NCBI GenBank assembly: GCA_034434835.1
Contig: DAOTXX010000104.1
Span: forward strand, 1-54,315
DNA: 54,315 nt
Reading direction: 5' to 3'
Origin: Thermoflexales bacterium
GTDB taxonomy: Bacteria > Chloroflexota > Anaerolineae > Fen-1058
How positions within the stretch are numbered: the stretch's first letter is position 1; every line of letters starts with the position of its first letter. A program made the position numbers and the translations under genes. The notes beneath the pieces were generated by a model, which was given only the letters and a program-made list of their open reading frames with translations, did not search any database and was not told where the DNA came from. Positions 14,338 through 54,315 of this stretch are shown here, piece by piece.

Positions 14338-15411
14338 TCATCTCGCCGGTTGCACGTCGCTGACGCCGCCCAGTGCATTGACCTTGAACGTCCACCGACT
14401 GCCTGGGGTGAATCGGGCAAACTCGGAGGCGGTGGACGGGGAAAAGGTGTACTGGGTGTCGTTGGCGATCAGAATCACTCGATATTTTTCTTCTCGCTCG
14501 CCTTCGCGCTGATTTGAACGGAGATTCGGTTCGGGCCAGCGGGGATTTGTATCGCTGCCATTGGCAATGGCCCGATTTACCACCTGCCACTCTGTGGCCG
14601 TGTACTTGCACCAATTATCGTAGACACGATACTGGCAATCCTGCACGACCTTGCCTTTGCCGGTGCCCTGGTCAATAACGTATGGCGTGCCGCATACTTT
14701 TTCTGCGCCGGGCGCGGGCTGATCCTGGGTCGAGCGGACCTTGCGTGTGCACATGCCTTTATCTGCGCCGGATGGAATCTGATTCTCCCAAGTCTCGCGT
14801 GTCACAGGCCGCTGTTCCATGATCTCGATGGTGCGTTCCCAGGCAATAGATTGAACGACGCCGGATACCTCTGTGGTGCGCATGGTCAACGCGGCAAAGA
14901 CGATGCCGCAGATGCACAATAGGATCAAAGCGACCGCGCCGATGACCATGGCGGCTCGATTCGGTTGAGCCGGCGCCGAAGGGCGTGGCGGCGCGGGAGC
15001 TGGCCGTTTGATCAAGTCGCCGCCGCACTTTTTGCAGCGTGGAGCATGGGGCAGATTCGGTTCACCGCAGTAAGGGCAGGGCTGTTCGGCGACCGGCCCG
15101 GTCTGCAAGCTGCCTAGAATCTGGCCGGCCGAACGCGCAGCGGCCCCGGCGAGCGCAGCGCCGCACTGCGAACAGGTGAGGGCGTCGGCCGGATTGCGCG
15201 TCCCGCAGAAGGGGCAATGCACGTCCGGGCCAGGCTGAGCAGCGACGTCGGCTGCCGCGATCAGTTCTTGTTGCTGTGGTAACTCGAATTGATCTTGCGC
15301 ATCCATCGCCGCGCCACACCCGGCGCAGGTTTTGTATGTCCCGGCGTTCTTGGTGCCACAGCGCTTGCACGTCCATTCCAATTCGACATAGCCCAGAGTT
15401 TCCCGAGTCAT
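14338..15411 (-). CDS. zinc-ribbon domain membrane protein
   Basis: ATG 15411 with AAGGAG RBS; three CxxC...CxxC zinc-ribbon units, one TM helix (MVIGAVALILLCICGIVFAAL), extracytoplasmic C-terminal domain. Confidence 0.5.
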   Translation of the reverse strand: MTRETLGYVELEWTCKRCGTKNAGTYKTCAGCGAAMDAQDQFELPQQQELIAAADVAAQPGPDVHCPFCGTRNPADALTCSQCGAALAGAAARSAGQILGSLQTGPVAEQPCPYCGEPNLPHAPRCKKCGGDLIKRPAPAPPRPSAPAQPNRAAMVIGAVALILLCICGIVFAALTMRTTEVSGVVQSIAWERTIEIMEQRPVTRETWENQIPSGADKGMCTRKVRSTQDQPAPGAEKVCGTPYVIDQGTGKGKVVQDCQYRVYDNWCKYTATEWQVVNRAIANGSDTNPRWPEPNLRSNQREGEREEKYRVILIANDTQYTFSPSTASEFARFTPGSRWTFKVNALGGVSDVQPAR

Positions 15412-15421
15412 CTTACTCCTT

Positions 15422-17944
15422 TCAGGTCTCGTCTGCTCGAGAGCCACTGGCGATTGCGCACTCGATTTGGATGACGAGCGAGCTTGCGTCGGCCTGCTCG
15501 CTAATCTCTACCTTGTCCGTGCGCGTGATGCTCATTATATCAAAGATGCTGGCTTTGAGCATTTGAGCTAACCTGGCGTCACGTGTGGCGATCTGCAATC
15601 GCTCGATCTTGGCGCTGAGCGCCAGACTGTGCTCGGTCTTGAAGCGGCGCACGGCTGTGGCGATCTCGATCAGCCGCTCGCCAACCGATTCGGCTCCATC
15701 GTCCTCCAGTGATTTGTCCGGCGTAGGCCAACGGGAAAGATGGATGGATTGAATGGTAGGGGCGACCCCCGCTGTTGCTCTGCTGTGGGCAGGCGCAAGG
15801 CCTGCCCCTACGGCAGGCGCGAACAGATGACGATAAATCTCCTCGGTCACGTGAGGCAGGATGGGTGCAAACAGTTTCAAGATGGTCAGGAATACGTGAT
15901 GCAACGCCCAGCGTGCGCCCTCTGATTCTTGTGGTGTACCTTCATACAGGCGCAGCTTTGCCATCTCCAGATAGTTGTCGGCCAGGTCTTTCCAAAAGAA
16001 TGTTTCCATCTCGCTCTTGGCGGTGGCGTACTCGTAATCGCGGAACAGGTTGGTCACGCGCCGAATGAGTCGCTGCGTCCGACTCAGAATCCAGCGGTCG
16101 GCAGGTGATAAATCTGGAATGCCGGCTTCAGCCGGCTTACCGGCTAAAGCCGGTGTTCCAGCTAGGAATCGCTGGCTGAACTGTGCCACGTTCCACAGCT
16201 TGGTCACGAGCTTGGCCCCGGCCTGCACCTTTTCTTCGCTGATGTAGGCATCTTTACCAAAGCCGGTGCTGGCGGCCCAATAGCGCACGGCATCCGCCGA
16301 ATATTTCTCAATCATCGCCATCGGGGCGATTGGCCCACCGCCTCGGCTCTTGCTGATTTTGCCTGCCCCTTCCGGCGCCAGCCCCCAACCCGAGATCGCC
16401 ACGTCTTTCCACGGCAATGCGTCAAAGTGGTGATGCGATTTGGCGATCGTGTAAAACGCCCACGTCCGAATGATCTCGTGCGCCTGAGGTCGAAGCGAGA
16501 ATGGAAACACTTGCTTGTACAACGCAGGATCATTGAGCCATTGTCCCACAATCTGCGGCGAAAGCGACGACGTGGCCCACGTGTCCATCACGTCCTGCTC
16601 AGGCGCAAATGACGTGCTTCCACATTTGCAAGGTTTGGCCGGCTTGTTCTCGAACGGGTCAACCGGCAGTTGCGCTTCGTCAGCCAGGTTGACCTCGCCG
16701 CAGGCCGTGCAATACCACACCGGAAACGCCACGCCAAAGTAACGCTGCCGCGAGATGCACCAGTCCCACTTGAGTCCCTCGATCCAATCTCGATAGCGCG
16801 CTTGCATATGAGGCGGGTGCCACGTCATCTGGTTCCCTGCTGCGAGCAGTTCGCGCTTGAAATCGAGCACGCGGATGAACCACTGCCGCGTGACAATGTG
16901 CTCGACCGGCGTGTCGCAACGCTCGTGCACGCGCACCGACTGTGGGGTAGGGCGCTGGGCAAGTAACAGACCGTGTTGATCCATCGCCTCGACAATCTGT
17001 TTCCGCGCCTCGGTCGTGGAGAGGCCAGCGAAATCCCCTGCGACTTGCGTCATGCGGCCTGTTTTGTCAATCGCTTCGACGAGCGGCAGGTGATGTGTGT
17101 ACCACCACTGCACGTCGGTCACGTCGCCGAATGTGCAGCACATCACCACGCCCGTACCTTTTTCCGGATCGGTGGCTCTGTCCTCCAGGATACTCACCTT
17201 TTGACCAAACAGCGGCACGATTATCTGCTGGCCCACGAGCGATTTGAAGCGCCGGTCGTCTGGATGCACAAACATGGCCACACACGCAGGCAGCAGTTCG
17301 GGGCGCGTCGTGGCGATGGGCACGGTCTCGCCACTTGCGAGTTTGAAGGCGAGCGTGTAGAACACTGTCTCGCGTTCCAGGTCGTTCAGTTCCGCTTCGG
17401 CAATCGCCGTGCGACATTCGGGGCACCAGATCGCCGGGGCCTTTTGGCGATAGGCCAACCTCTTGCGATATAGGTCAATGAACGACAGTTGCGCCGTGCG
17501 GCGCGAGAGCGCGTCAATCGTGCGATAGGTGTAGCACCAGTCAATCGAAAGCCCCAGCCGTTGCCAGAGTGCCTGGTAGTCCTTTTCCGCCTCGACGCTC
17601 ACCTCAAGGCATTTTTCGATGAACGCCTGCCGTCCCATGTCGGCCGCGCGGATGCCCAGCCGCTTTTCGATCAGTCGCTCGGTGGGCAGGCCGTTATCGT
17701 CATAGCCCATCGGATAAAACACGTTGTAGCCGTTCATCCGCCAAAAGCGCGCCATGAAATCTGTCTGGCTGTAGGAATAGACATGGCCCAAGTGCAGATG
17801 ACCCGAGACCGTCGGCGGCGGCGTGTCAATCGAATAGACCGGTCCATCGCGCTGCGGATCGAAATGATAAATGCCGACTTCTTGCCACAAGGTTTGAAGT
17901 TGCGGTTCGGCTGTGCCAGGTTGATAACATTTTGGCAAAGGCAT
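15422..17944 (-). CDS. class Ia aminoacyl-tRNA ligase, ValS-like paralog (T-box regulated)
   Basis: 840 aa; PPPTVSGHLHLGH (HIGH-like), KISKSRGG (KMSKS-like), WCISRQRYFG; N-terminus LPKxYxP like ValS but GYDDNGLPTE resembles Leu/IleS; lacks ValS C-terminal coiled coil; exact specificity unresolved. Confidence 0.7.
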   Translation of the reverse strand: MPLPKCYQPGTAEPQLQTLWQEVGIYHFDPQRDGPVYSIDTPPPTVSGHLHLGHVYSYSQTDFMARFWRMNGYNVFYPMGYDDNGLPTERLIEKRLGIRAADMGRQAFIEKCLEVSVEAEKDYQALWQRLGLSIDWCYTYRTIDALSRRTAQLSFIDLYRKRLAYRQKAPAIWCPECRTAIAEAELNDLERETVFYTLAFKLASGETVPIATTRPELLPACVAMFVHPDDRRFKSLVGQQIIVPLFGQKVSILEDRATDPEKGTGVVMCCTFGDVTDVQWWYTHHLPLVEAIDKTGRMTQVAGDFAGLSTTEARKQIVEAMDQHGLLLAQRPTPQSVRVHERCDTPVEHIVTRQWFIRVLDFKRELLAAGNQMTWHPPHMQARYRDWIEGLKWDWCISRQRYFGVAFPVWYCTACGEVNLADEAQLPVDPFENKPAKPCKCGSTSFAPEQDVMDTWATSSLSPQIVGQWLNDPALYKQVFPFSLRPQAHEIIRTWAFYTIAKSHHHFDALPWKDVAISGWGLAPEGAGKISKSRGGGPIAPMAMIEKYSADAVRYWAASTGFGKDAYISEEKVQAGAKLVTKLWNVAQFSQRFLAGTPALAGKPAEAGIPDLSPADRWILSRTQRLIRRVTNLFRDYEYATAKSEMETFFWKDLADNYLEMAKLRLYEGTPQESEGARWALHHVFLTILKLFAPILPHVTEEIYRHLFAPAVGAGLAPAHSRATAGVAPTIQSIHLSRWPTPDKSLEDDGAESVGERLIEIATAVRRFKTEHSLALSAKIERLQIATRDARLAQMLKASIFDIMSITRTDKVEISEQADASSLVIQIECAIASGSRADET

Positions 17945-44275: not shown

Positions 44276-44303
44276 TTGACATTTTTGACGGCAATGATAA
44301 TAT
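44276..44303 (+). promoter_or_regulatory. sigma70-like promoter for FHA-OmpR regulator gene (near-leaderless)
   Basis: TTGACA-16 nt-TAATAT ending 8 nt before ATG 44311. Confidence 0.45.
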
Positions 44304-44310
44304 AGATAGC

Positions 44311-44961
44311 ATGACAGAGGCAACACCAGGCGACGTAAACGTGCGACAGCGACCAGCCTGCCTGACCAGCCCGGATCATGAAATCCCGTTGGCGGGTCGA
44401 ACGATCACGCGCATCGGTCGCGCTCCAGACAACGAAGTGGTGCTGGACAATAAACGTGCCTCACGGTACCATGCCGAGATCCGTTGGGAAAAACATCATT
44501 ACGTCCTAAGCGATCTGGAAAGCACGAACGGCACTTTTGTCAATGGTGAACGGCTCGCCGCGCCGCACGTGCTCAAGGACGGCGACCAGATCGAGATTGC
44601 TGGAGTCCGGTACAGATTCTCCGATCCTGAAGCTACGTGGATTGAGGAGCGGCTTCCCACGCTGATGCTGGACGAAAAAGCAGGTATCGTGTGGGTGAAC
44701 CGACGGCCGCTCTTGCTTTCCCCCAAAGAATTTGCGCTGCTGGTACTGCTGCATCGTCACGCGGGCGCAATCTGCGACAAAGACAGCATTGCCTCAGCCG
44801 TCTGGCCCGAATGTCCTGACCAAGTGTATGACTACCAGATTGAGAACCTGGTCGGGCGCCTGCGCCAAAAGTTGGAAGCCGAGCCAGGCGCCGGCGCGCT
44901 GATCGAAACGGTGCGTGGACGCGGCTACCGGCTTATCCCCCCCGAAACCTCTCAATCGTAG
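44311..44961 (+). CDS. FHA domain + OmpR/PhoB-type winged-helix DNA-binding regulator
   Basis: N-terminal FHA (ITRIGRAPDNEVVLDNKRASRYHAEI...STNGTFVNG), C-terminal trans_reg_C-like (LSPKEFALLVLLHRHAGAICDKDSIASAVW...VGRLRQKLE...IETVRGRGYRL). Confidence 0.7.
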   Translation: MTEATPGDVNVRQRPACLTSPDHEIPLAGRTITRIGRAPDNEVVLDNKRASRYHAEIRWEKHHYVLSDLESTNGTFVNGERLAAPHVLKDGDQIEIAGVRYRFSDPEATWIEERLPTLMLDEKAGIVWVNRRPLLLSPKEFALLVLLHRHAGAICDKDSIASAVWPECPDQVYDYQIENLVGRLRQKLEAEPGAGALIETVRGRGYRLIPPETSQS

Positions 44962-45297
44962 CTCTCCACTTTTTTTCAGCGAACTGGTGGCTGGCCGATA
45001 GGTTTGTGCTGGCGAATGGCAGTACAATACAATCAATGGATAAAACCGTCTCATCAGCGGTTTGCTATAGTATTGTTTGCCTATAGCTCTGCGCTCCCCA
45101 AATGAGATATAATGATCGCGACCCTGCCGCCAGATGCCTGAAAGTGATCACAGGCCCCATGACACTGGAGGAAAAGATACATTCGTCGTTGATGGATCGG
45201 GCACCCAGCTTTTTCCACTCTCTTGTCTCGCCCCAGTTTCCCTACTGATCTAGACGTCCGCACAATAGATTGAATTGAGTTGAAAGAAGGAGAAATC

Positions 45298-47286
45298 ATG
45301 CGCGCACCATTGACCTGCCTGTTGACGATCCTTTTGGCGGGCATCGCCCTGATTCTGACATTGACCTGGTTGATCACGCCCGCCCCGGCACAAGCCAACC
45401 CCGATATACGCTACGTGGCGCCGCCGCCCACAGGCAACGATGTCGGCAACGACTGCACGAACCCGTCCAATCCCTGCGCAACGATCCAGCATGCTATCAA
45501 CGTCGCCAGCTTCGGTGACCTGGTCTCGGTGGCGGCTGGCACCTACGCCGAGCACATTACCATGCGCGACGGCGTCTCGGTGCACGGGCAGGGATGGGTC
45601 AGCACGACGATTGACGGCGGCCACACCGGCCCCACGCCAACTGTTTACATGTCAAGCGTGTGGGCCAGCACTGTCCTTTCGGGCGTGCAGGTCACGGGCG
45701 GCGGCACCGGGGTCACTGCTACGTCCACGCAGGATGGCGGCGGGATCGCCATCTGGTATGCCGCGCCGACCATCGTGAATACCTGGGTCAACGGCAACAC
45801 TGCCCGCAACGGCGGTGGCGTGTTCGCGCGCTACAGCTCGCCGACGCTCGACAATGTGCCTGCCTCACTCAATGCAGCAGCACAGCGCGGCGGCGGGTTC
45901 TACCTGGATGGTTCCGGTACGGTCACGGTGACGGATGCTTCGCTGTTCGCCGGCACTAACGGTATGGTGCTGTGGAACACGGCTGGCTGGGATGGCGGAG
46001 GATTTTACATTTCGGAAGTGACGGCCACCGTGGGGGGCTTGCGCATCTGGGGGAACAGCGCGAACGGCAACGGCGGCGGCGTGAGCATCGCCAACGCTCA
46101 CAACCCGGTGCTGTTTACGCTGAACCAGATCAATTGGAACTCGGCATCCAACGGCGGCGGGCTTGACACCTATCGGGCGACCCGACTTTCGATTGGCCTG
46201 AACATGATTGACGGGAACACAGCCAGGAATAGTGGCGGCGGCGCGCAGTTTTCCGATTCCGCCGGACTGCTGCAAGCCAACTGGCTCAGGACCAACGCCG
46301 CCGGTGCCTATGGAGGAGGCGCCGCGGTGGTCTATGGCTCGCCCGAGCTGCTGTTGCGCGGTAACTGGATCGAAGGGAACAGCGCCGGTTTCGGCGGCGG
46401 GGTTTATCTGCAGACCACAGCCAACCCGCTGGTAGACGGCAATGTGATCGTGACCAACACGGCGAACACAGGCGGCGGCATCGGCCTGTTTGAGGCCGGG
46501 GTGGCGACGGTCACCAACAACATCGTGGCGCGCAACGTCGCTTCGACCACTGCGCACTTGGGCGGCGGCATCCTGGTGGACTCGGCGCCTGCGCGCATTG
46601 TCAACAACACCATTGCCGACAACATCGGCGACGGCGTGCTGTTCCAGGAGGCCGAGGGTGTGGCGATCGTGAACAACATCGTCACGGGCAATCTGGGCGA
46701 CGGGATCGAGCATTACTCCGACACGCTATGGGTCAGTCCCACGCTGGTTTACACCGCCGATTACAATGACGTGTGGAACAACTCTGGCCACTATGTCGGC
46801 TTTTCCGGCGGCACACACGACTTGCACGTCAATCCACAGTTCGTGGCTTCCGGCGACATGTTCGCCTATTATCACATCCAGGCGACCTCACCCGTGAGCA
46901 CAACCGGCTCAACAGCCTGGGCGCCACAACTTGACATGGATGGAGACATACGGATCCTGGGCGGCAGCGTCTCGATGGGCGCGGACGAGTTCTTTTGGCC
47001 GGTTGCGCTCACGGGCGTCAGTATTGACGGCCCGGTAGAAGGCCGTGCCAACACGAGTTACGTTTTCACAGCGACCGTCGCGCCAGTCACGGCGACGCCG
47101 CCGATCACCTACACCTGGGTACCTACGCCATCTGGCGGGCAAGGCACACCCATGGCAATCTACACCTGGTCCACGGCCGGGACCAAGACGATCACCGTCA
47201 CGGCAGAGAACACTGGCGGCAGCGCAACAGATTCGCACCAGATCGGCATTGCCTATGAGGTTTACTTGCCGCTGGTGCTGCACTAG
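45298..47286 (+). CDS. secreted right-handed beta-helix repeat protein with PKD-like domain and C-terminal VYLPLVL motif
   Basis: ATG 45298 with AAGGAG RBS; signal peptide; NGGG-containing parallel beta-helix repeats; PKD/Ig-like segment; ends ...AYEVYLPLVLH*. Confidence 0.7.
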   Translation: MRAPLTCLLTILLAGIALILTLTWLITPAPAQANPDIRYVAPPPTGNDVGNDCTNPSNPCATIQHAINVASFGDLVSVAAGTYAEHITMRDGVSVHGQGWVSTTIDGGHTGPTPTVYMSSVWASTVLSGVQVTGGGTGVTATSTQDGGGIAIWYAAPTIVNTWVNGNTARNGGGVFARYSSPTLDNVPASLNAAAQRGGGFYLDGSGTVTVTDASLFAGTNGMVLWNTAGWDGGGFYISEVTATVGGLRIWGNSANGNGGGVSIANAHNPVLFTLNQINWNSASNGGGLDTYRATRLSIGLNMIDGNTARNSGGGAQFSDSAGLLQANWLRTNAAGAYGGGAAVVYGSPELLLRGNWIEGNSAGFGGGVYLQTTANPLVDGNVIVTNTANTGGGIGLFEAGVATVTNNIVARNVASTTAHLGGGILVDSAPARIVNNTIADNIGDGVLFQEAEGVAIVNNIVTGNLGDGIEHYSDTLWVSPTLVYTADYNDVWNNSGHYVGFSGGTHDLHVNPQFVASGDMFAYYHIQATSPVSTTGSTAWAPQLDMDGDIRILGGSVSMGADEFFWPVALTGVSIDGPVEGRANTSYVFTATVAPVTATPPITYTWVPTPSGGQGTPMAIYTWSTAGTKTITVTAENTGGSATDSHQIGIAYEVYLPLVLH

Positions 47287-47321
47287 TCCCCGTAAGGGGG
47301 CATCAGTTCCCGGAGGACAAG

Positions 47322-49130
47322 ATGAAATCCCAACGCTTGCTTTTTACTGCTGTGCTCAGCCTGGGGTTGACCCTCGCCTTGCTTGCTTGGTTGCACACAG
47401 TCCGCGCCTCGCCAACCGCTCACAGCCTGTTTGTCACCCCCACAGGCGGCGATACGGCCTGCACGCAGGCTGCCCCTTGCATCCTGGCGACCGCGCTGAG
47501 CCTGGCTGTAGACGGCGATACGATCTATGCGGCCAGCGGCGTCTACACCGGGACAGGCACAGAGGTCATTCATGTCACCGCCAGCATCACCCTCTACGGC
47601 GGCTGGGACGGCGCGACCAGCGGCCCGGTGGTGCGCGACCCTCAAGCCTATCCCACCATCCTGGATGGCGAAAACGCGCGGCGAGTGATGCTCATCTCTT
47701 TGCCAGTATCTCCCACCCTGGAGGGGCTGACGCTGCAGCGGGGCAACGCGGCGGGTCTGGACGGCGATCCCGCGATCCCCGACGCTGATGCTGGCGGCGG
47801 AGTTTATGCCAAAAATGCCAGCCCCACCATCAGCAACTGCCGTATCTTGAGCAGCACGGCTGGCTTTGGCGCAGGGCTGGCGCTCTACGGGGGCACACCG
47901 GCTGTCATCAACAGCGTGATCGCGGACAACGTCGCCATCCAGAGCATGAGCGGCATCACGAGAGGGGTCGGCGGCGGGATGTTCCTCTATCAGGGCGCGG
48001 GCGTCGTCGCCGGCAACCTCATCGCCAACAATATCGCCAGCGGCACACAGACATACGACGGCGGCGGCGGGCTGTACCTGGATAGCAGCACAACGCTCAT
48101 TCGCAATAACACTATCCAGGGCAACCGCGGCCCGCACAACGGCGGCGGAATGATGGTCTATGGAAGCGCGATCACTGTGCGGGGGAATGTTATCCTGGGC
48201 AATACGGGGGGCATTGGCGGCGGCGTGCTCCTGATGTCAAGCCCGGCCTACTTTGAGGCCAATACGATCCTGGGAAACGGGTCAACGGCGGGGGGTGGCG
48301 GATTGGTCATCTTTGATAGTGTCAGCTTTACGCTAACCAACAACGTCGTCGCGCAGAACCATGGCGCCTACCCGGCCGGGCTCCTTGCGACAGGGCTTTA
48401 CCCTGGCTCATACAGCCAGGGCGCGCTCATACACAACACCTTTGCAGACAACCACTCGTTCTTCAATCCCTGGATGATCGATCTGGGCAGCAGTTCTCTC
48501 GGATATGCAACGCTGGTCTTTACCAACAGTATCATCGGCCTGCCAGGAGGAGTATATGTGGCGGCAGGCAGCACGGCGGTGCTGGACACGACCTTGTGGG
48601 ACAGAATACCGATCGGCATGGAGACAGCCGGCCCCGGCACGATCATCAGCAGCGTCAATCTCTACGGCAACGCGAATTTTGTCGGCCAGTATCGCATCAG
48701 CCCCGGCTCATCGGCGATTGACCAGGGCGCGAACACCGGGATAGCGACCGACATTGATGGCGAAGCCCGCCCCAACGGCGCCAGGCCCGACATCGGCGCC
48801 GACGAGTTCTACTGCTACGCGCTGAGTGGCGTGACCATCGCCGGGCCGACGAGCGGCATCAGTGGCACGGCCATCGCCCTCACCGCCGTGGTCTCCCCAC
48901 TGACCAGCACGCTGCCGGTCACCTATACCTGGCAGGCAACCTCCCAAGCGCTGCTCAGCCGAACAGTCTATGCCCCGAGCGACACGGCGACCTTCACGTG
49001 GACAGTCACCGGCGTGCAAGCCATCACCGTCACTGCGGCCAACTGCGGCAGCAGTGTGACAGATACTCGCACGATCACCATTTACCATTCGCGCGTCTAC
49101 CTGCCGCTGGTGCTGCGGCAGTCCCCGTAA
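47322..49130 (+). CDS. secreted beta-helix repeat protein with PKD-like domain and C-terminal VYLPLVLRQSP
   Basis: signal peptide, beta-helix repeats, PKD-like segment, ends ...HSRVYLPLVLRQSP*. Confidence 0.7.
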   Translation: MKSQRLLFTAVLSLGLTLALLAWLHTVRASPTAHSLFVTPTGGDTACTQAAPCILATALSLAVDGDTIYAASGVYTGTGTEVIHVTASITLYGGWDGATSGPVVRDPQAYPTILDGENARRVMLISLPVSPTLEGLTLQRGNAAGLDGDPAIPDADAGGGVYAKNASPTISNCRILSSTAGFGAGLALYGGTPAVINSVIADNVAIQSMSGITRGVGGGMFLYQGAGVVAGNLIANNIASGTQTYDGGGGLYLDSSTTLIRNNTIQGNRGPHNGGGMMVYGSAITVRGNVILGNTGGIGGGVLLMSSPAYFEANTILGNGSTAGGGGLVIFDSVSFTLTNNVVAQNHGAYPAGLLATGLYPGSYSQGALIHNTFADNHSFFNPWMIDLGSSSLGYATLVFTNSIIGLPGGVYVAAGSTAVLDTTLWDRIPIGMETAGPGTIISSVNLYGNANFVGQYRISPGSSAIDQGANTGIATDIDGEARPNGARPDIGADEFYCYALSGVTIAGPTSGISGTAIALTAVVSPLTSTLPVTYTWQATSQALLSRTVYAPSDTATFTWTVTGVQAITVTAANCGSSVTDTRTITIYHSRVYLPLVLRQSP

Positions 49131-49201
49131 TGGGGCAGAATGATTGAGCGGGGAGCGCAGGTCTGCTCCCCAGTCCCTCATCACAGACAAAGGATGACAA
49201 T

Positions 49202-52114
49202 ATGCAAACCAAACGCCTCATTAGAATTATCGCTCTGGGCCTAGGGATGCTATTGACCCTGCTCGTCGGGTTGACGGCAGCCAGCGCCAAACCCGGTTCA
49301 CTGCCGGACATCGAGTTTCTGATCTCGCGCCGAGTCCACGAGATTCCGCGACAGTCGTTGTATGGGCAGCACCTCGCCAGCGTGCCAGAGCCTGCTCAGG
49401 CCGAGAAGACGACAGCCATTCAGCAGCAAGCTCAGGGCATCCAGGTGGTGGGCCAGCTCGGTGGCACGGTGCGTACCGTCACAGTGCAAGGCAGTCGGGC
49501 CTACATCGGCGTGGGGCCACGGCTGGTTGTTTTGGATATCACCGATCCGACTCGCCCAATAGTCAGCGGTCAATCCGCCGTGCTGCACGACATTGTCGAG
49601 CACGTGACCCTATCAGGCACCCTGGCCTATGTCGCTGATGGATACAGCGGCCTGTATATTTTCGACATCTCCAACCCTGCTGCTCCGGTCGAGGTAGGCT
49701 CCTACGACACATCCGGGCAGGCACACGAGGTGGTGGTGAGCGGAAGCCATGCCTACATCGCGGATGGCTCCGAGGGCCTGCGCATCCTCAATGTCTCTAG
49801 TCCAGCAGCTCCAAGCGAGGTTGGCTCTTTTGATACACCATCCGAGGCCTATGGCGTGGCCGTGACGGGCACGCACGCTTACGTCACGAGCTATTACGGC
49901 GGCCTGCACGTGATAGACGTGATCGCGCCGGCCTTTCCGGTGCAGGTCGGTTTCTACAATGGCCCGATGCTGGGTTACGCCTCGGGCGTGGCCGTAGCAG
50001 GGCATTACGCCTACGTCACCGATGGAAACCGTCTGCACGTCGTTGACATCCTCGACCCGGAGAACCCGTCCCAGGCATCCGCTTCTCGCGCGCCGGATGC
50101 ATGGGATGTGACCATCGCGGGCGACCGCGCCTACATCGCCTATGGGTACTATGAAGGCGGGCTACGCGTCGTTGACGTTCACAGCCCGACAGCTCCCACC
50201 GAGGTCGGCTTTTACGCCACGGGCAGTAAGGCGTATGACGTGGCTGTGGCTGGCGGGTATGCCTACCTCGCCAGCGGTGACGATGGGCTGCGGATCATCA
50301 ACGTAGCCAACCCGGCTCCGCCGCAAGAGGCCGGCTCTTTCGACACTACCGGAAGTCCTTATGACGTGGCCGTCTCGGGTAACTATGCTTACGTCGCCGA
50401 TGGGGCCAATGGTCTACGGGTGATTGACGTGTCTACGCCGACGCACCCGGTCGAGGTGGGAGGATACGACACGCCGGGGACCGCCTATGGCGTGGTGGCG
50501 AGCGGGCGCTACGCCTACGTCGCCGATGGAAGCGGCGGGCTGCGCATCATTGACGTGTTGACCCCAACCGCTCCATACCAGGTCGGCGTGTACACGCCGA
50601 CGTTGCCGATGGCGACTGCCTATGGCGTGACAGTGCGTGGCGATTATGCCTACGTTGCCCAAGGGGCTGCTGGCCTGGCGATTGTCAACATTCACACGCC
50701 TACCCTTCCCACCCAGGCCAGCGTTTACACCCAGACGCTGACGGGGCTGGCCTATGGTGTGGCCGTGTATGGAAACTATGCCTACATTGCCGATGGGGGT
50801 AGTGGCCTGCGCATCATCAACGTCCAGACTCCCACGCAGCCGAGCGAGGCCGGGTACTATACAGGGATTTTCGCCAGGAATGTGGCAGCAAGCTATTACG
50901 CCTACGTGGCAGATGTGAGCAATGGGTTATACGTCATTGACGTGCACAACCCGGCCAGTCCGACTCGGGTCAATACATCTGGCATTCCATCGGGTTCCAC
51001 TTACGACGTCGTCCTGGATTGGCCCTACGTCTATCTAGCCAGCGCAGTGAACGGCTTGCGCATCGTTGATGTCTCCAACGCAGTAACCCCGACCGTGGTC
51101 TATACCTGTGGAATACCGGCAGGAGGCTTCGCTTATGGCGTCGCGGTAGCAGGGAACTATGCCTACGTCGCCGATTCGAGCTATGGCCTGCGCGTCTTTA
51201 CGCTCACAGCCTTTAGCGAAGTTGGTCATTACGACACGCTGGCATCCGCGCAGAACGCAACCGTTTCCGGCACATATGCCTACGTCGCGGACGGCAACAA
51301 GGGGCTGCGCATCGTCAACATCTCTAACCCCTCCGCCGTGACCCTGGTTGGCCAGTACAAAACCCGTGGCGGGTATGCGACCAACGTGGCCGTGGCGGGA
51401 AACTATGCCTACGTCGCCGACCCGTATGGCCTGAGCATCATCAACGTGCAGAACCCAGCCGTACCGGCCGAGGTTAGCTACTATGACACAAAGCATAGCG
51501 TTCAAGACGTAGCGCTCGCCGGGCCTTATGCTTACCTCACCACTGACGCAAGCCTGCAAGTCGTCAATGTCTCCAACCCCCTGATGCCCACGCAAGCCGG
51601 CAGTTGCGCCTTGCCGGATTACGCCGTGGGGGTGGCAATATCTTGGCCCTACGCCTACGTCGCCAACTACCACAGCGGCCTGCGAGCCGTCAGGGTTAAC
51701 GTCTTGCCTCCAGTATCAGCAGGCTTTTACGATACCCCAGGCATCGCGTATGATGTAGTGGTGACTGGCAATTATGCCTATGTCGCGGACTGGACCGCTC
51801 TGCGTGTCATCAACATCAGCGACCCGGAACACCTGAGCCAAACTGGCGTTTACACCTTCTCATACCGCGTGATTTGGAGCGTTGCCGTCACGTGGCCGTA
51901 CGTCTACCTGGCCGACTCTGGGTATGGTCTGCATGTTCTGGACGTCTCGAACCCGGCAGAGCCACAGGAGGTGGGCTTTTACGAGACGCCCGGAGAGGCT
52001 GAAGGCGTGACGGCAGCCGGGAACTTGGTTTACGTTGCCGATGGAGAGGGAGGGCTGATCATGATCCGCCGACAACAGCGCGTCTACCTGCCGGTGGTGA
52101 TGCGAAATGGGTAG
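49202..52114 (+). CDS. secreted LVIVD-repeat (beta-propeller) protein with C-terminal VYLPVVMRNG
   Basis: signal peptide; >20 ~45-aa repeats of the form YAYVADGxxGLRIIDVSxPxxPxEVGxYDT; ends ...RRQQRVYLPVVMRNG*. Confidence 0.75.
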   Translation: MQTKRLIRIIALGLGMLLTLLVGLTAASAKPGSLPDIEFLISRRVHEIPRQSLYGQHLASVPEPAQAEKTTAIQQQAQGIQVVGQLGGTVRTVTVQGSRAYIGVGPRLVVLDITDPTRPIVSGQSAVLHDIVEHVTLSGTLAYVADGYSGLYIFDISNPAAPVEVGSYDTSGQAHEVVVSGSHAYIADGSEGLRILNVSSPAAPSEVGSFDTPSEAYGVAVTGTHAYVTSYYGGLHVIDVIAPAFPVQVGFYNGPMLGYASGVAVAGHYAYVTDGNRLHVVDILDPENPSQASASRAPDAWDVTIAGDRAYIAYGYYEGGLRVVDVHSPTAPTEVGFYATGSKAYDVAVAGGYAYLASGDDGLRIINVANPAPPQEAGSFDTTGSPYDVAVSGNYAYVADGANGLRVIDVSTPTHPVEVGGYDTPGTAYGVVASGRYAYVADGSGGLRIIDVLTPTAPYQVGVYTPTLPMATAYGVTVRGDYAYVAQGAAGLAIVNIHTPTLPTQASVYTQTLTGLAYGVAVYGNYAYIADGGSGLRIINVQTPTQPSEAGYYTGIFARNVAASYYAYVADVSNGLYVIDVHNPASPTRVNTSGIPSGSTYDVVLDWPYVYLASAVNGLRIVDVSNAVTPTVVYTCGIPAGGFAYGVAVAGNYAYVADSSYGLRVFTLTAFSEVGHYDTLASAQNATVSGTYAYVADGNKGLRIVNISNPSAVTLVGQYKTRGGYATNVAVAGNYAYVADPYGLSIINVQNPAVPAEVSYYDTKHSVQDVALAGPYAYLTTDASLQVVNVSNPLMPTQAGSCALPDYAVGVAISWPYAYVANYHSGLRAVRVNVLPPVSAGFYDTPGIAYDVVVTGNYAYVADWTALRVINISDPEHLSQTGVYTFSYRVIWSVAVTWPYVYLADSGYGLHVLDVSNPAEPQEVGFYETPGEAEGVTAAGNLVYVADGEGGLIMIRRQQRVYLPVVMRNG

Positions 52115-52202
52115 GACGGAGTGAACCTCCGCCCGCCTCCGGTCCGGCCCCCGGGCAGAACGTCAACCGGCGGGGAGAGGCCGGACTCCACGCCACAGCA
52201 CT

Positions 52203-54095
52203 GTGTGGAGGTGTGCGATGAAAGACAAACAGTGGTTGAATATTGGTTGGGCATCGGGGGCCGCGACCATTCTGATGATGGCACTCCTGGCGCTACTCAA
52301 GCCCTCTACCGTGTCGGCGAGCGGTGAGACGTTCCTCGTGAACTCATCCTCCGATCATCCCGACAGCAACATCGGCAATTGCGTCTGCCAGGGCGCCGGG
52401 GGCTGTACCCTGCGCGCGGCCATCCAGGAGGCCAACGCATGCCCTGGCCCGCAGACGATTCGGTTCAGCGCCGCTTATACAATCACGCCCGCCACCGTGC
52501 TGCCGGTGATCACCGACAACGGCACGGTGATTGACGGCAGTGATCAATGGTTCACAGGCACCTATAAGACCCCTGGCGTGGTAATCTACGGCGATTTCCG
52601 CGCCTTCAGCGGCGTGGTGATCACGGCGTCCAATTGCGCCGTTTATGGCATCGCGATCTCCAGCTTTGGCCAGCACGGCATCCATCTATACGGCGGCGCG
52701 CAGAACAACACCATCGGCGGGCAGGGTCATCAGCGTAACGTCATCTCGCATAATGGATGGAATGGTGTACTGATCGAGGGCACAACAACGACGGGCAACG
52801 ACGTGACCAACAACTACGTCGGCACCGACTCGACCGGCCGTTACGGCGCGGGCAACGGCTGGCACGGTATCAGCGTCTGGGATGGCGGGGGCAACCAAGT
52901 TATGCTCAACCTAGTTGCCGACAATGGCTGGAGTGGCATAACGATGGACGCCGCCAGCAGCGGCACGATCGCGCACAACCGTATCGGGATGAACGTCGCT
53001 GGCCAGCCGCTGAGCAACGGCTTCTACGGGGTCCACATCGGCCACGGCGCAACCCCTTGGGTCTCCCACAACACCATCGCCTTCAACCGCCGCGGCATAC
53101 ACATCGAGGGCGGTAGCGCTCCGTGGATCTACTACAACACCATTTACGGCAACAACGCCAGCAGTGTAGCTGCAAATCCAAAACGAGGGGGCGGCATCTA
53201 CTGCGACGATGCCCGGCCCACCATTGTCAGCAACGTCATCACGAACAACGTCGCCTATACGGCCGCTGACGCCCTCGGCTTCGGCGGCGGTCTCTACCTC
53301 CTCACCTGCGACGGCGTGATCAGCGGCAACACAGTGGTCAGCAACACAGCCAACACCGCCGGCGAGGGATGGGGAGGCGGCATCTACCTCTGGGGGGGCG
53401 ATGTCGTCGTCAGCAGCAACACCATTATGAGCAATACTGCCGGCGCCGATGTCAACAGCCGGGGTGGCGGCCTGATGCTCAGTTATAACAGCAACGCCAC
53501 GGTGGACGGCAACGTCATCGCCGGCAATAGCGCTTCCTTTGGCGGGGGCCTGCAAACCGAGAACAGCGCTTTCTTCACCGTGACCAACAACATCATTGCC
53601 CGGAACTCTGCCTTGTGGGACGGAGGCGGAGTGCGGGCCTGGGCCAGCATCCCTTCCCGTGGGCTGCTGGTCAACAACACCATCGCTCAGAACGGCGGAT
53701 GGCCTCCTACGGGGGTGTATCTGTCCCAATACTGCTTTCTCACCCTTACCAACAACATCGTCGTCAGCCACTATATCGGCATCCACGCCTCGCCGGGCCT
53801 CACGAACAGCGTCGCTGCGGATTACACGCTGTTTTACGGAAACATCAAGGACACCGATGGCAGCCTCATCACCAGCACACACGCGATCACCGGCCGCGAT
53901 CCGCTCTTTCTGGACCCGGCCGGGGGGAACTATCACCTGCGCGCCGGGTCGCCGGCGGTTGACGCCGGCATCACTGTTCCCTGGCTGACCACCGATATTG
54001 ATGGTGATCCCCGCCCTCTGGGCGCGAGGTATGACATCGGCGCGGATGAAGTGCGCTTCATCTACCTGCCGCTGGTACTGCGTCAGTCCCCGTAA
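52203..54095 (+). CDS. secreted beta-helix repeat protein with C-terminal IYLPLVLRQSP
   Basis: signal peptide, NNxI/V beta-helix repeats, ends ...GADEVRFIYLPLVLRQSP*. Confidence 0.7.
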   Translation: MWRCAMKDKQWLNIGWASGAATILMMALLALLKPSTVSASGETFLVNSSSDHPDSNIGNCVCQGAGGCTLRAAIQEANACPGPQTIRFSAAYTITPATVLPVITDNGTVIDGSDQWFTGTYKTPGVVIYGDFRAFSGVVITASNCAVYGIAISSFGQHGIHLYGGAQNNTIGGQGHQRNVISHNGWNGVLIEGTTTTGNDVTNNYVGTDSTGRYGAGNGWHGISVWDGGGNQVMLNLVADNGWSGITMDAASSGTIAHNRIGMNVAGQPLSNGFYGVHIGHGATPWVSHNTIAFNRRGIHIEGGSAPWIYYNTIYGNNASSVAANPKRGGGIYCDDARPTIVSNVITNNVAYTAADALGFGGGLYLLTCDGVISGNTVVSNTANTAGEGWGGGIYLWGGDVVVSSNTIMSNTAGADVNSRGGGLMLSYNSNATVDGNVIAGNSASFGGGLQTENSAFFTVTNNIIARNSALWDGGGVRAWASIPSRGLLVNNTIAQNGGWPPTGVYLSQYCFLTLTNNIVVSHYIGIHASPGLTNSVAADYTLFYGNIKDTDGSLITSTHAITGRDPLFLDPAGGNYHLRAGSPAVDAGITVPWLTTDIDGDPRPLGARYDIGADEVRFIYLPLVLRQSP

Positions 54096-54315
54096 GGGGG
54101 CAGAATTGCTGAGCGACGAAGAGCAGAGGGGCGAGCAAGACATGTACTCTTCCTTGTCCCTCTGCTCCTCATCACAAACACAAGACATGCGGTAAAAAGT
54201 CAATAGGCACATTGACAATCGAATAGGCGACCGTGGGCCACTTGGCCTGCTGCAAGCCGCATCCGTGTATACCAACAGAACTTGCACTTTTCTGCGGTCG
54301 AGCTACCTGGACGCG

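What the first reader, a model, noticed from the sequence alone, without database searches (positions are those of the whole stretch)
44311..54095. Four tandem secreted repeat proteins share an extreme C-terminal [V/I]YLP[L/V]V[L/M]R motif: candidate novel sorting/anchoring tag
Seen in sequence: four consecutive + strand genes are preceded by an FHA+OmpR-type regulator gene. Three encode beta-helix+PKD proteins and one an LVIVD beta-propeller protein. All have N-terminal Sec signal peptides and end with ...VYLPLVLH, ...RVYLPLVLRQSP, ...RVYLPVVMRNG and ...FIYLPLVLRQSP respectively. The LVIVD protein shares the motif only at protein level (different codons), which argues for selection on the peptide. 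Established knowledge: known C-terminal sorting signals (LPXTG, PEP-CTERM, GlyGly-CTERM, PGF-CTERM and others) consist of a motif, a TM helix and a basic tail. This motif is only ~8 residues, hydrophobic, and lies 0-4 residues from the end, so it does not match those families. Inference: a shared C-terminal tag for cell-surface attachment, secretion-associated processing or partner binding (beta-strand augmentation) in a monoderm-like envelope.
Basis: partly seen in the sequence, partly recalled or inferred. Interest (0 to 1): 0.7.

Follow-up and report, generated by a model that had tools for sequence, protein, structure and literature searches.

The report
Known Chloroflexota YLP-box sorting tail
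Four neighbouring secreted surface-protein genes of an Anaerolineae-type bacterium all end in the same roughly 12-residue "YLP-box"; the tag is real and widespread in Chloroflexota, but NCBI curators already model it as a putative protein-sorting motif and its mechanism is still unknown.

Summary
Four tandem + strand genes (45280-54095) encode signal-peptide proteins that end in [VI]YLP[LV]V[LM][RH] plus 0-3 residues. The motif occurs nowhere else in the window.

It is not novel. The isolated tails match two curated NCBIfam models, NF050076 "sort_motif_YLP" and NF053834 "ultrashort_CTERM". Both are described as "YLP-box putative sorting motif-containing protein". Whole-protein scans miss them because of the length penalty.

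The tag is not a local paralogue quirk.
- About 120 of 240 homologues carry it.
- A family-independent DNA scan found it at the end of long ORFs only in Chloroflexota: 31 of 44 matches there, against about 1 of 73 elsewhere.
- 78 tail-bearing ORFs fall into 29 sequence clusters.
- It is associated with N-terminal signal peptides.
- Third codon positions vary freely, so selection acts on the peptide.
- AlphaFold2 leaves the tail unstructured.

Homologues from other phyla carry a T9SS C-terminal domain or a transmembrane anchor at the same position. That supports a surface sorting or retention role.

No processing enzyme or conserved neighbour was found, and no paper mentions the motif.

The parts
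44311..44961 (+). Regulator gene: N-terminal FHA domain plus C-terminal OmpR/PhoB-type winged-helix domain (Trans_reg_C), 216 aa. It lies 319 bp upstream of the four tail genes.
   Evidence: Pfam FHA 81.3 bits and Trans_reg_C 68.8 bits. A sigma-70-like site lies at 44276-44303, matching 10 of 12 positions. A regulatory link to the four genes is inferred from position only.
45280..47286 (+). Gene 1: secreted right-handed beta-helix + PKD protein, 668 aa from the TTG start. The likelier start is the ATG at 45298. The signal peptide probably ends at ...PAQA (about 45396).
   Evidence: Pfam Beta_helix 72 bits, NosD, PKD 31.6 bits; weak choice_anch_Q. The signal peptide was read by eye.
47257..47283 (+). 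Gene 1 YLP-box tail, EVYLPLVLH. It was shortened by a CAG-to-TAG change: the old ...SP-TAA remnant still follows the stop.
   Evidence: The isolated tail scores NF053834 13.3 bits (cut-off 10) and NF050076 14.7 bits (cut-off 15). The orthologue on L001 ends ...IYLPLVVH*.
47322..49130 (+). Gene 2: secreted beta-helix (Pel9A / tailspike-like) + Ig/PKD-like domain protein, 602 aa. The signal peptide is about 47322-47408 (...VRA).
   Evidence: Pfam Beta_helix and NosD; choice_anch_Q 40.5 bits against a cut-off of 25. AlphaFold2 mean pLDDT 90.6. Foldseek matches Pel9A (1ru4) and ColG PKD domains.
49089..49127 (+). Gene 2 YLP-box tail, SRVYLPLVLRQSP.
   Evidence: NF050076 16.1 bits (cut-off 15) and NF053834 14.0 bits (cut-off 10) on the isolated tail; 11.4 bits on the whole protein. 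Residues 590-602 have pLDDT falling from 52 to 43 and no secondary structure.
49202..52114 (+). Gene 3: secreted LVIVD-repeat beta-propeller protein, 970 aa, 19 repeats. The signal peptide is about 49202-49288 (...ASA).
   Evidence: Pfam LVIVD 562.8 bits in 19 stretches; NCBIfam choice_anch_B 101.5 bits against a cut-off of 100.
52076..52111 (+). Gene 3 YLP-box tail, QRVYLPVVMRNG.
   Evidence: NF050076 16.8 bits and NF053834 14.7 bits on the isolated tail; 12.5 bits on the whole protein.
52203..54095 (+). Gene 4: secreted CSLREA-N-terminal + beta-helix + choice-of-anchor Q protein, 630 aa, no PKD domain. The signal peptide is about 52203-52319 (...VSA).
   Evidence: Pfam Beta_helix 104 bits; NCBIfam choice_anch_Q 38.9 bits, CSLREA_Nterm 27.4 bits, para_beta_helix 32.4 bits.
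54054..54092 (+). Gene 4 YLP-box tail, RFIYLPLVLRQSP.
   Evidence: NF053834 12.7 bits (cut-off 10) and NF050076 12.1 bits (below 15) on the isolated tail.
49119..49142 (+). 3' DNA shared by genes 1, 2 and 4 that runs past the stop codon (CAGTCCCCGTAA[T/G]GGGGCAGAAT). It marks recent exchange of 3' ends between the local paralogues. The same stretch is at 47281-47304 and 54084-54107.
   Evidence: DNA alignment. No such downstream similarity exists between tails from other genomes.

Best explanation
The four genes encode Sec-exported surface or extracellular proteins of an Anaerolineae-class Chloroflexota bacterium. Three are pectate-lyase-fold beta-helix proteins and one is an LVIVD beta-propeller. 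All belong to 'choice-of-anchor' families. Each ends in the YLP-box, a Chloroflexota-specific linear tag with consensus [W/R/Y][R/K][I/V][Y/F]-L-P-[L/V]-V-[L/M/V]-[R/K] followed by 0-3 residues (often N-x-P). NCBIfam already models it (NF050076, NF053834) as a putative sorting motif. Shown here: the tag is modular, under peptide-level selection, unstructured, coupled to signal peptides and confined to one phylum. It also replaces T9SS C-terminal domains or transmembrane anchors found in homologues elsewhere. Inferred: after Sec export and signal-peptide cleavage, the exposed tail is recognised by a trans-encoded, lineage-specific protein, either a sorting enzyme or a surface receptor, which keeps the protein on the cell surface of this monoderm. 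The invariant Pro, the near-invariant Leu before it and the Tyr/Phe suggest recognition by a protein rather than simple lipid partitioning. Because the tail cannot span a membrane, recognition must happen outside the membrane or as the chain leaves the translocon. Whether the tail is cleaved (transpeptidation with a 1-4-residue leaving group) or kept as a docking peptide is not known. I lean slightly towards recognition with processing.
For: The isolated tails match the curated YLP-box models. 94 of the 120 best homologues of gene 2 (33-93% identity) and 28 of 120 LVIVD homologues by the scan's regex (a few further variant endings such as YLPSVMR fall outside it) end in the box. It follows PKD, DIGADE/choice-of-anchor Q, DUF11, peptidase C13, lipase and CarboxypepD_reg modules. 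Other LVIVD homologues end in T9SS C-terminal domains (...KKMILLK) or transmembrane+basic anchors. NCBIfam labels the bodies choice_anch_Q and choice_anch_B. In an unanchored DNA scan of GTDB species genomes, 43-46 of 119 stretches are Chloroflexota. There, 31 of 44 matches lie within 5 codons of a stop at the end of a long ORF, against 1 of 73 elsewhere (a 1.9-kb contig that is probably misbinned); Fisher p = 7e-17. With a general regex, long-ORF hits are 35 C-terminal versus 13 internal in Chloroflexota, and 0 versus 26 in other phyla. 26 of 30 complete tail ORFs have an N-terminal hydrophobic signal, against 61 of 206 other ORFs (p = 3e-9). Tail-bearing families include Peptidase_C25, M28, SBBP, SdrD_B and beta-helix. 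78 tail ORFs fall into 29 clusters. There are 34 distinct 21-nt codings among 46 tails, and the downstream DNA is unrelated. Pro is invariant in 128 of 128 tails, and tail length is constrained. In the AlphaFold2 model the tail is disordered while the body has pLDDT above 90.
Against: No partner was found. In 105 Chloroflexota and metagenome loci (682 kb, 583 ORFs) no non-tail family recurs next to tail genes in general, and neighbouring polytopic membrane proteins are unrelated singletons. No sortase, exosortase, rhomboid or CPBP gene is in the window. About 14% of tails end exactly at the R/K, so there is no leaving group after it. A minority of canonical boxes are internal, including N-proximal ones and one inside a cupredoxin-like domain, which fits poorly with a strict C-terminal cleavage-and-attachment signal. 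There are no experimental data and no paper on the motif in the searched library. On whole proteins the NF050076 scores (11.4 and 12.5 bits) are below the 15-bit cut-off.
Confidence: 0.6

Rival explanations
1. Partner-free interfacial anchor. The short cationic, aromatic and hydrophobic peptide (W-R-I-Y-LPLVL-R-N-Y-P) dips directly into the outer leaflet of the cytoplasmic membrane, or into an anionic wall polymer or sheath. It holds the protein at the surface without any enzyme or receptor.
For: The hydrophobic core is flanked on both sides by basic and aromatic residues. The tail is free and unstructured. No partner gene was found. Boxes that are internal or extended by 5-30 residues are tolerated.
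Against: Seven hydrophobic residues give only weak partitioning energy for proteins of 60-250 kDa (my estimate from Wimley-White scales). The strict invariance of Pro (128 of 128), of Leu at +1 (93%) and of Tyr/Phe is more typical of recognition by a protein. A lipoprotein-type N-terminus (L111) also carries the tail, although it is already anchored.
Confidence: 0.15
2. Maturation or processing site rather than an anchor. The box marks where an extracellular protease trims the protein, for example removing C-terminal pro-domains or separating modules. The usual 0-4-residue remainder is simply what is left when no pro-domain is present.
For: In P0164 and P0239 the box is followed by a roughly 120-aa PPC-like domain, of a kind that is cleaved off in other secreted peptidases. 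In L038, L050 and L022 it lies at module junctions. A conserved R/K would suit an Arg/Lys-specific protease, and some carriers are themselves C25 or C13 peptidases.
Against: More than 85% of boxes have nothing meaningful to remove. The PPC and MAM matches are below their cut-offs. This reading does not explain why the box substitutes for T9SS C-terminal domains and transmembrane anchors in homologues.
Confidence: 0.1
3. Local artefact: the tail is a relic of recent paralogue duplication, or of a repeated DNA element at gene 3' ends, and has no function as a peptide.
For: Genes 1, 2 and 4 share DNA through and beyond the stop codon, and gene 3 uses the same codons.
Against: The box is found in hundreds of proteins from many genera, in at least 29 unrelated clusters. 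Synonymous variation occurs at every codon, flanking DNA is unrelated, and the reading frame and distance to the stop are strictly kept.
Confidence: 0.02
4. Intramolecular structural element: a final beta-strand or cap that completes the last domain.
For: The tail follows the last folded domain closely.
Against: The preceding domains differ (PKD, propeller, DIGADE region, DUF11, PT-rich linkers). AlphaFold2 gives the tail low confidence and no secondary structure, while the adjacent Ig-like domain has pLDDT around 90.
Confidence: 0.03
5. Translation-termination or arrest peptide: the last residues act inside the ribosome tunnel at the stop codon (many tails end in Pro-stop).
For: The distance to the stop codon is tightly constrained, and the terminal residue is frequently Pro (38 of 59 tails with three residues after the R/K).
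Against: Tail ends vary (R, RN, RNS, RNYP). Boxes also occur internally. There is no rationale for restriction to exported proteins.
Confidence: 0.03

Closest known systems
NCBIfam NF050076 'sort_motif_YLP' and NF053834 'ultrashort_CTERM' (YLP-box putative sorting motif)
   Same: Same motif, same extreme C-terminal position, same lineage. The isolated tails of all four proteins reach the NF053834 cut-off, and genes 2 and 3 reach the NF050076 cut-off.
   Different: Nothing substantive. On whole proteins of 600-970 aa the 10-11-position models fall below cut-off, so automatic annotation names these proteins after their other domains. The models call the motif only 'putative'. No partner or mechanism is attached, and I found no publication.
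LPXTG / sortase cell-wall sorting signal
   Same: A C-terminal tag on Sec-exported surface proteins of monoderms. It has a Pro-containing signature (L-P) and a basic residue after the hydrophobic part. It is modular across many families.
   Different: No T-G, no roughly 20-residue transmembrane helix, and no long basic tail. The whole signal is about 12 residues and cannot hold the substrate in the membrane.
PEP-CTERM/exosortase, PGF-CTERM/archaeosortase, GlyGly-CTERM/rhombosortase, MYXO-CTERM/myxosortase
   Same: Lineage-restricted C-terminal tags with a short signature motif, carried by 'choice-of-anchor' protein families.
   Different: All are tripartite (motif + transmembrane helix + basic cluster) and are cut by polytopic intramembrane enzymes. 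The YLP-box has no transmembrane segment.
Type IX secretion C-terminal domain (T9SS CTD, PF18962)
   Same: It sits at the same place in LVIVD homologues from Bacteroidota, KSB1 and related phyla. It marks surface and secreted proteins and is removed by PorU, a C25-family sortase.
   Different: The T9SS C-terminal domain is a folded beta-sandwich of 70-100 aa that works across an outer membrane. The YLP-box is a 12-residue linear peptide in a phylum regarded as monoderm.
Ultrashort C-terminal signals of eukaryotes (PTS1 -SKL, KDEL, CAAX box; the butelase/asparaginyl-endopeptidase N-H-V tail)
   Same: They work like this tag in one respect: a few residues at or near the free C-terminus are read by a soluble or peripheral receptor or enzyme, without a transmembrane segment.
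   Different: They are unrelated in sequence, compartment and lineage. The comparison is an analogy only.

Membership tests
YLP-box (NCBIfam NF050076 / NF053834) | HMM match at or above the curated cut-off | tested here: inconclusive
   Isolated tails (last 33-36 aa): NF053834 scores 13.3, 14.0, 14.7 and 12.7 bits, all above the cut-off of 10. NF050076 scores 14.7, 16.1, 16.8 and 12.1 bits against a cut-off of 15, so genes 2 and 3 pass. Whole proteins: NF050076 scores 11.4 bits (gene 2) and 12.5 bits (gene 3), below cut-off, and the other proteins and NF053834 are not reported. This is the length penalty on a 10-11-position model.
YLP-box (NCBIfam NF050076 / NF053834) | Motif lies at the extreme C-terminus ('ultrashort CTERM') | tested here: met
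   The stop codon follows 1, 4, 3 and 4 codons after YLPxVx.
YLP-box (NCBIfam NF050076 / NF053834) | Carrier is an exported protein with an N-terminal signal peptide | tested here: met
   All four have n/h/c regions with AxA-type sites. By hydrophobicity, 26 of 30 complete tail ORFs have such a signal, against 61 of 206 controls. No dedicated signal-peptide predictor was available.
YLP-box (NCBIfam NF050076 / NF053834) | Chloroflexota lineage | tested here: met
   The closest named homologues are Anaerolineae MAGs and Ca. Thermoflexus. C-terminal YLPLVLR occurs only in Chloroflexota genomes in the scan. The lineage of the window itself is inferred from its homologues.
LPXTG / sortase signal | LPXTG (or LAXTG/NPQTN) motif, then a transmembrane helix, then a basic tail | tested here: not met
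   The tails read LPLVLR(QSP). There is no T-G, and only 0-4 residues follow the R. No sortase-signal model matched.
PEP-CTERM / PGF-CTERM / GlyGly-CTERM / MYXO-CTERM | Signature motif plus a roughly 20-residue transmembrane helix and an Arg/Lys cluster | tested here: not met
   There is no hydrophobic stretch longer than 7 residues at the C-terminus. No NCBIfam CTERM model other than the YLP-box models matched at E<=10.
T9SS C-terminal sorting domain | Folded C-terminal domain of 70-100 aa (PF18962 / TIGR04183) | tested here: not met
   There is no Pfam or NCBIfam hit in the four proteins, although homologues of gene 3 have one.
Choice-of-anchor families (NCBIfam choice_anch_Q NF041518, choice_anch_B TIGR04312) | HMM above cut-off; a family whose members carry differing C-terminal anchors | tested here: met
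   choice_anch_Q scores 40.5 bits (gene 2) and 38.9 bits (gene 4) against a cut-off of 25; gene 1 scores 13.5 bits, below it. choice_anch_B scores 101.5 bits (gene 3) against a cut-off of 100. Varied anchors among homologues were seen directly.

The most novel reading that the evidence does not exclude
The YLP-box is read by a sorting enzyme or receptor that has not yet been discovered and that needs no membrane-spanning segment in its substrate. That would be a new class of prokaryotic surface-sorting pathway, specific to filamentous Chloroflexota. The box may also work at internal linker positions and through small YLP-tagged adaptor proteins (the conserved 'fibre + roughly 100-aa YLP protein' gene pair).
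Probability: 0.35. Interest if true: 0.7.

Novelty: already known. Interest (0 to 1): 0.35.

Why it matters
Chloroflexota are abundant in sludge, sediments, hot springs and sponges, yet how they display adhesins and hydrolases on their unusual envelope is essentially unknown. The YLP-box marks that surface proteome. Every other well-described prokaryotic C-terminal sorting signal has a transmembrane helix, and this one does not, so its reader should be a different kind of machine. For this window the practical value is limited to annotation. The four genes form a regulated cluster of YLP-box surface proteins, and such tails are missed by whole-protein HMM scans. Scanning only the last 30 or so residues recovers them.

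Tried and rejected
(1) A whole-protein NCBIfam scan at E<=0.1 showed no tail model. Only scanning the isolated tails at E<=10 revealed the YLP-box models.

I replaced it with DNA pattern scans.

(3) Literature searches for the motif strings, 'YLP-box', the model accessions, and Chloroflexota plus sorting signal found nothing relevant. Haft's myxosortase preprint does not mention the motif.

(4) An exact look-up of gene 4's product found nothing on record.

(5) The search for an adjacent sorting enzyme was negative. I ran all-vs-all clustering of 330 and then 583 ORFs from 49 and then 105 loci, and compared polytopic membrane neighbours. The only recurrent tail-less neighbour is a fibre-like secreted protein paired specifically with one small YLP family. 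It has no catalytic signature and no Pfam match.

(6) The DNA-repeat or paralogue-relic explanation was rejected by codon analysis.

(7) The structural-cap explanation was rejected by the AlphaFold2 model.

(8) A sequence search of PDB chains with genes 2 and 3 found no informative relatives.

(9) The third homologue search, the representative-library search and the second structure job were not used, because no remaining question justified their cost.
Full report
**Observation**

The region 44311-54095 holds an FHA + Trans_reg_C regulator gene (44311-44961) and four + strand ORFs of 668, 602, 970 and 630 aa, separated by 36-89 bp. Their C-termini read ...EVYLPLVLH...RVYLPLVLRQSP...RVYLPVVMRNG and ...FIYLPLVLRQSP.

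A six-frame scan for [YFW][LIVM]P[LIVM]{3} finds five hits in the 54-kb window. Four are these tails, each 1-4 codons from the stop. Markov simulations of the window give 0.08 hits on average. All four N-termini look like cleavable Sec signal peptides.

- Gene 4 has no PKD domain. It is CSLREA-Nterm + beta-helix + choice-of-anchor Q.
- The LVIVD gene does not use different codons. Its tail is GTC TAC CTG CCG GTG GTG ATG CGA, identical to gene 2 wherever the residue is shared.

Genes 1, 2 and 4 share DNA beyond the stop codon (CAGTCCCCGTAAGGGGGCAGAAT). Gene 1's shorter tail results from a CAG-to-TAG change within that shared sequence. Within the window alone, recent paralogue exchange could therefore not be excluded.

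**What it is**

Whole-protein scans against Pfam and NCBIfam label the protein bodies but show nothing for the tail. The body labels are:
- Beta_helix/NosD and PKD;
- LVIVD, 19 repeats;
- choice_anch_Q at 40.5 and 38.9 bits;
- choice_anch_B at 101.5 bits;
- CSLREA_Nterm.

Scanning only the last 33-36 residues at a permissive threshold hits two curated NCBIfam models: NF050076.1 'sort_motif_YLP' (11 positions, cut-off 15 bits) and NF053834.1 'ultrashort_CTERM' (10 positions, cut-off 10 bits). Both are described as 'YLP-box putative sorting motif-containing protein'.

All four tails pass the NF053834 cut-off, and genes 2 and 3 pass NF050076. On the whole proteins the same alignments score 11.4 and 12.5 bits, below cut-off, because of the length correction. 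This explains why close homologues in GenBank are named after other domains.

The 'candidate novel tag' is therefore already a curated family, though only as a putative motif. I found no paper that mentions it.

**Breadth**

Of the 120 best homologues of gene 2 (33-93% identity; Anaerolineae MAGs and Ca. Thermoflexus), 94 end in the box. In these it follows a PKD domain, the DIGADE end of choice-of-anchor Q, or DUF11.

Of the 120 best homologues of the LVIVD protein, 28 end in the box by the scan's regex, and a few more have variant endings such as YLPSVMR. They carry it after peptidase C13, lipase, CarboxypepD_reg, PKD or PT-rich linkers. The others end in T9SS C-terminal domains (...KKMILLK), archaeal transmembrane+basic anchors, or other endings. 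This is the 'choice-of-anchor' pattern.

From 128 distinct tails the consensus is [W/R/Y][R/K/Y][I/V][Y/F]LP[L/V]V[L/M/V][R/K][N/D/S/G][Y/S/H]P. Pro is invariant and Leu is 93% conserved. The protein ends 0-3 residues after the basic residue, rarely more.

**Family-independent test**

I scanned one genome per GTDB species for DNA encoding YLPLVLR, with no stop codon in the pattern.
- 43-46 of the stretches are Chloroflexota (Anaerolineae, Thermoflexia/Thermoflexales, Chloroflexia and unclassified).
- In Chloroflexota, 31 of 44 matches are followed by a stop within 5 codons and close a long ORF.
- In other phyla the few near-stop matches lie in tiny out-of-frame ORFs. The exception is one 1.9-kb contig that is probably misbinned (Fisher p = 7e-17).

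With a general regex, long-ORF hits are 35 C-terminal versus 13 internal in Chloroflexota loci, and 0 versus 26 elsewhere.

A stop-anchored pattern found 57 more instances in JGI metagenomes. Of these, 56 close a real ORF.

Pooled, 78 tail ORFs of 79-2466 aa fall into 29 blastp clusters. Those scanned include Peptidase_C25, Peptidase_M28, SBBP, SdrD_B/CarboxypepD_reg, beta-helix and unknown families.

Among complete tail ORFs, 26 of 30 have an N-terminal hydrophobic signal, against 61 of 206 other ORFs in the same loci (p = 3e-9). Two of the four exceptions are start-codon artefacts.

Across genomes the seven core codons show synonymous variation at every third position, with 34 distinct 21-mers among 46 tails. 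The DNA after the stop is unrelated.

**Structure**

The AlphaFold2 model of gene 2, built with 55 homologues, is confident (mean pLDDT 90.6). It shows a Pel9A/tailspike-like beta-helix followed by an Ig/PKD-like domain. Residues 590-602, the tail, drop to pLDDT 52-43 and have no secondary structure. The tag is a free linear peptide and not part of a fold.

**Mechanism**

Shown: the tag is an exported-protein-specific, lineage-specific, modular, C-terminal linear motif that substitutes for known surface-sorting signals.

Inferred: it is read by a trans-acting Chloroflexota protein, either a sorting enzyme or a receptor, that retains the cargo at the cell surface. The invariant Pro, the conserved Leu and the Tyr/Phe argue for recognition by a protein. 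With only about 7 hydrophobic residues the tail cannot hold the substrate in the membrane. Recognition must therefore be extracytoplasmic or coupled to exit from the translocon.

- The window has no candidate. Its other genes are housekeeping: RNase PH, two class-I aminoacyl-tRNA synthetases, PBP/RodA, a ugp-like ABC transporter and others.
- Clustering 583 ORFs from 105 loci shows no general tail-less neighbour.
- There is no shared membrane protein among the neighbours.

**Points that cut against a simple cleave-and-attach model**
- About 14% of tails end exactly at the R/K.
- Some boxes carry 5-30 extra residues.
- A minority are truly internal. Some lie at module junctions (L038, L050, L022). 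Some precede a sub-threshold PPC-like domain (P0164, P0239). One is N-proximal, ahead of a GHL10 domain (L037). One lies inside a cupredoxin-like domain (L013).

These cases keep the partner-free interfacial anchor and the processing-site readings alive.

**Comparison and verdict**

The motif is the NCBIfam YLP-box.

It works like LPXTG, PEP-CTERM or the T9SS C-terminal domain in being a C-terminal address label on surface proteins. It fails their defining features, having no transmembrane helix and no folded domain.

The finding is real and biologically interesting, but already catalogued. The window adds four more members. Its clear cluster context (an FHA/OmpR-type regulator followed by four tagged genes) differs from the orthologous contig L001. 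There, a fibre-like gene plus a 94-aa YLP protein replace the LVIVD gene.

Noticed in passing
L001:3737-5658; also L076:5764-7646, L127:3914-6374, L129:413-1696, L138:1038-2489, L179:9896-11513, L121:13849-15592: A conserved two-gene cassette. A 370-700-aa secreted, tail-less protein is followed about 10 bp later by an 87-137-aa secreted protein that ends in the YLP-box. The large protein has a shared N-domain of about 110 aa (FTYQG.L.D..G.PV..TCDF...GDARWL...LSPRQ.L..APYA) and then Gly-rich GVYG repeats; it has no Pfam match. The small protein reads SP-Y.L.W.T.DGGG..GG.Y.L.GT.GQPDAG..GG.Y.L.GGFWGG. In L001 the pair sits directly after the 93%-identical orthologue of window gene 2. The small protein may be a YLP-tagged adaptor for a fibre.
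   Followed up: partly
L013:1893-8000(+), L037:5549-6988(-), L038:4541-7999(-), L050:3438-7544(-), L022:3128-5323(-), L113:4121-6883(-); P0164, P0239: Canonical YLP-boxes with the typical flanks occur internally. L038 and L050 have them at module junctions. In P0164 and P0239 the box precedes a roughly 120-aa PPC-like domain (sub-threshold). In L037 it is N-proximal, before a GHL10 domain. In L013 it lies inside a cupredoxin-like domain, ahead of more than 1900 aa. This is unexplained: the boxes could be fusion relics, processing sites, or a sign that the function tolerates different positions.
   Followed up: partly
window:47257-47304: Gene 1's tail is a truncated copy of the ...LRQSP* tail. 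CGG CAG became CAC TAG, giving ...LH*, and the old TCC CCG TAA and the shared downstream GGGGGCA remain after the new stop. The orthologue on L001 also ends ...VVH*, so the His-ended form is conserved.
   Followed up: yes
P0129, P0139, P0157, P0227; P0138, P0144, P0151, P0193, P0202, P0234 (LVIVD homologues): Two other recurrent C-terminal endings occur among LVIVD proteins from other lineages...SDPTTVLPQ* and ...LL(A/E)WVRR*. They could be further short C-terminal signals or simply conserved domain ends.
   Followed up: no
L006:2072-2605(+): In an Anaerolineae MAG, a 177-aa protein with a classical C-terminal hydrophobic helix and an RRRRR tail lies next to a Peptidase_C25 protein that carries the YLP-box. 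Both anchor types therefore coexist in the same organism.
   Followed up: no
L111:2114-3625(+): A YLP-box beta-helix protein has a lipoprotein-like N-terminus (…LVLVWSC…). The tail is therefore not limited to proteins that would otherwise be released.
   Followed up: no
window:10030-12750(-) and 15422-17944(-): Two class-I aminoacyl-tRNA synthetase genes of the Val/Ile/Leu type (906 and 840 aa) lie within 5 kb of each other on the minus strand. Only the first has the ValRS C-terminal arm. A zinc-ribbon protein gene (14338-15447) lies between them.
   Followed up: no
window:2335-9930(-): A run of minus-strand genes encodes two TPR proteins, a radical SAM protein, a 560-aa WD40 propeller protein and a 476-aa SPFH/Band-7 protein with an MVP-shoulder-like domain. 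The 495-aa ORF at 63-1550 has no Pfam match.
   Followed up: no
L121:5200-8112(-) versus window:44311-44961(+): YLP-box gene clusters sit next to winged-helix regulators of different architectures. In the window the regulator is FHA + Trans_reg_C. In L121 it is Trans_reg_C + BTAD + AAA + TPR (SARP/AfsR-like). This hints at control of these surface-protein clusters through Ser/Thr-kinase-linked regulators.
   Followed up: no
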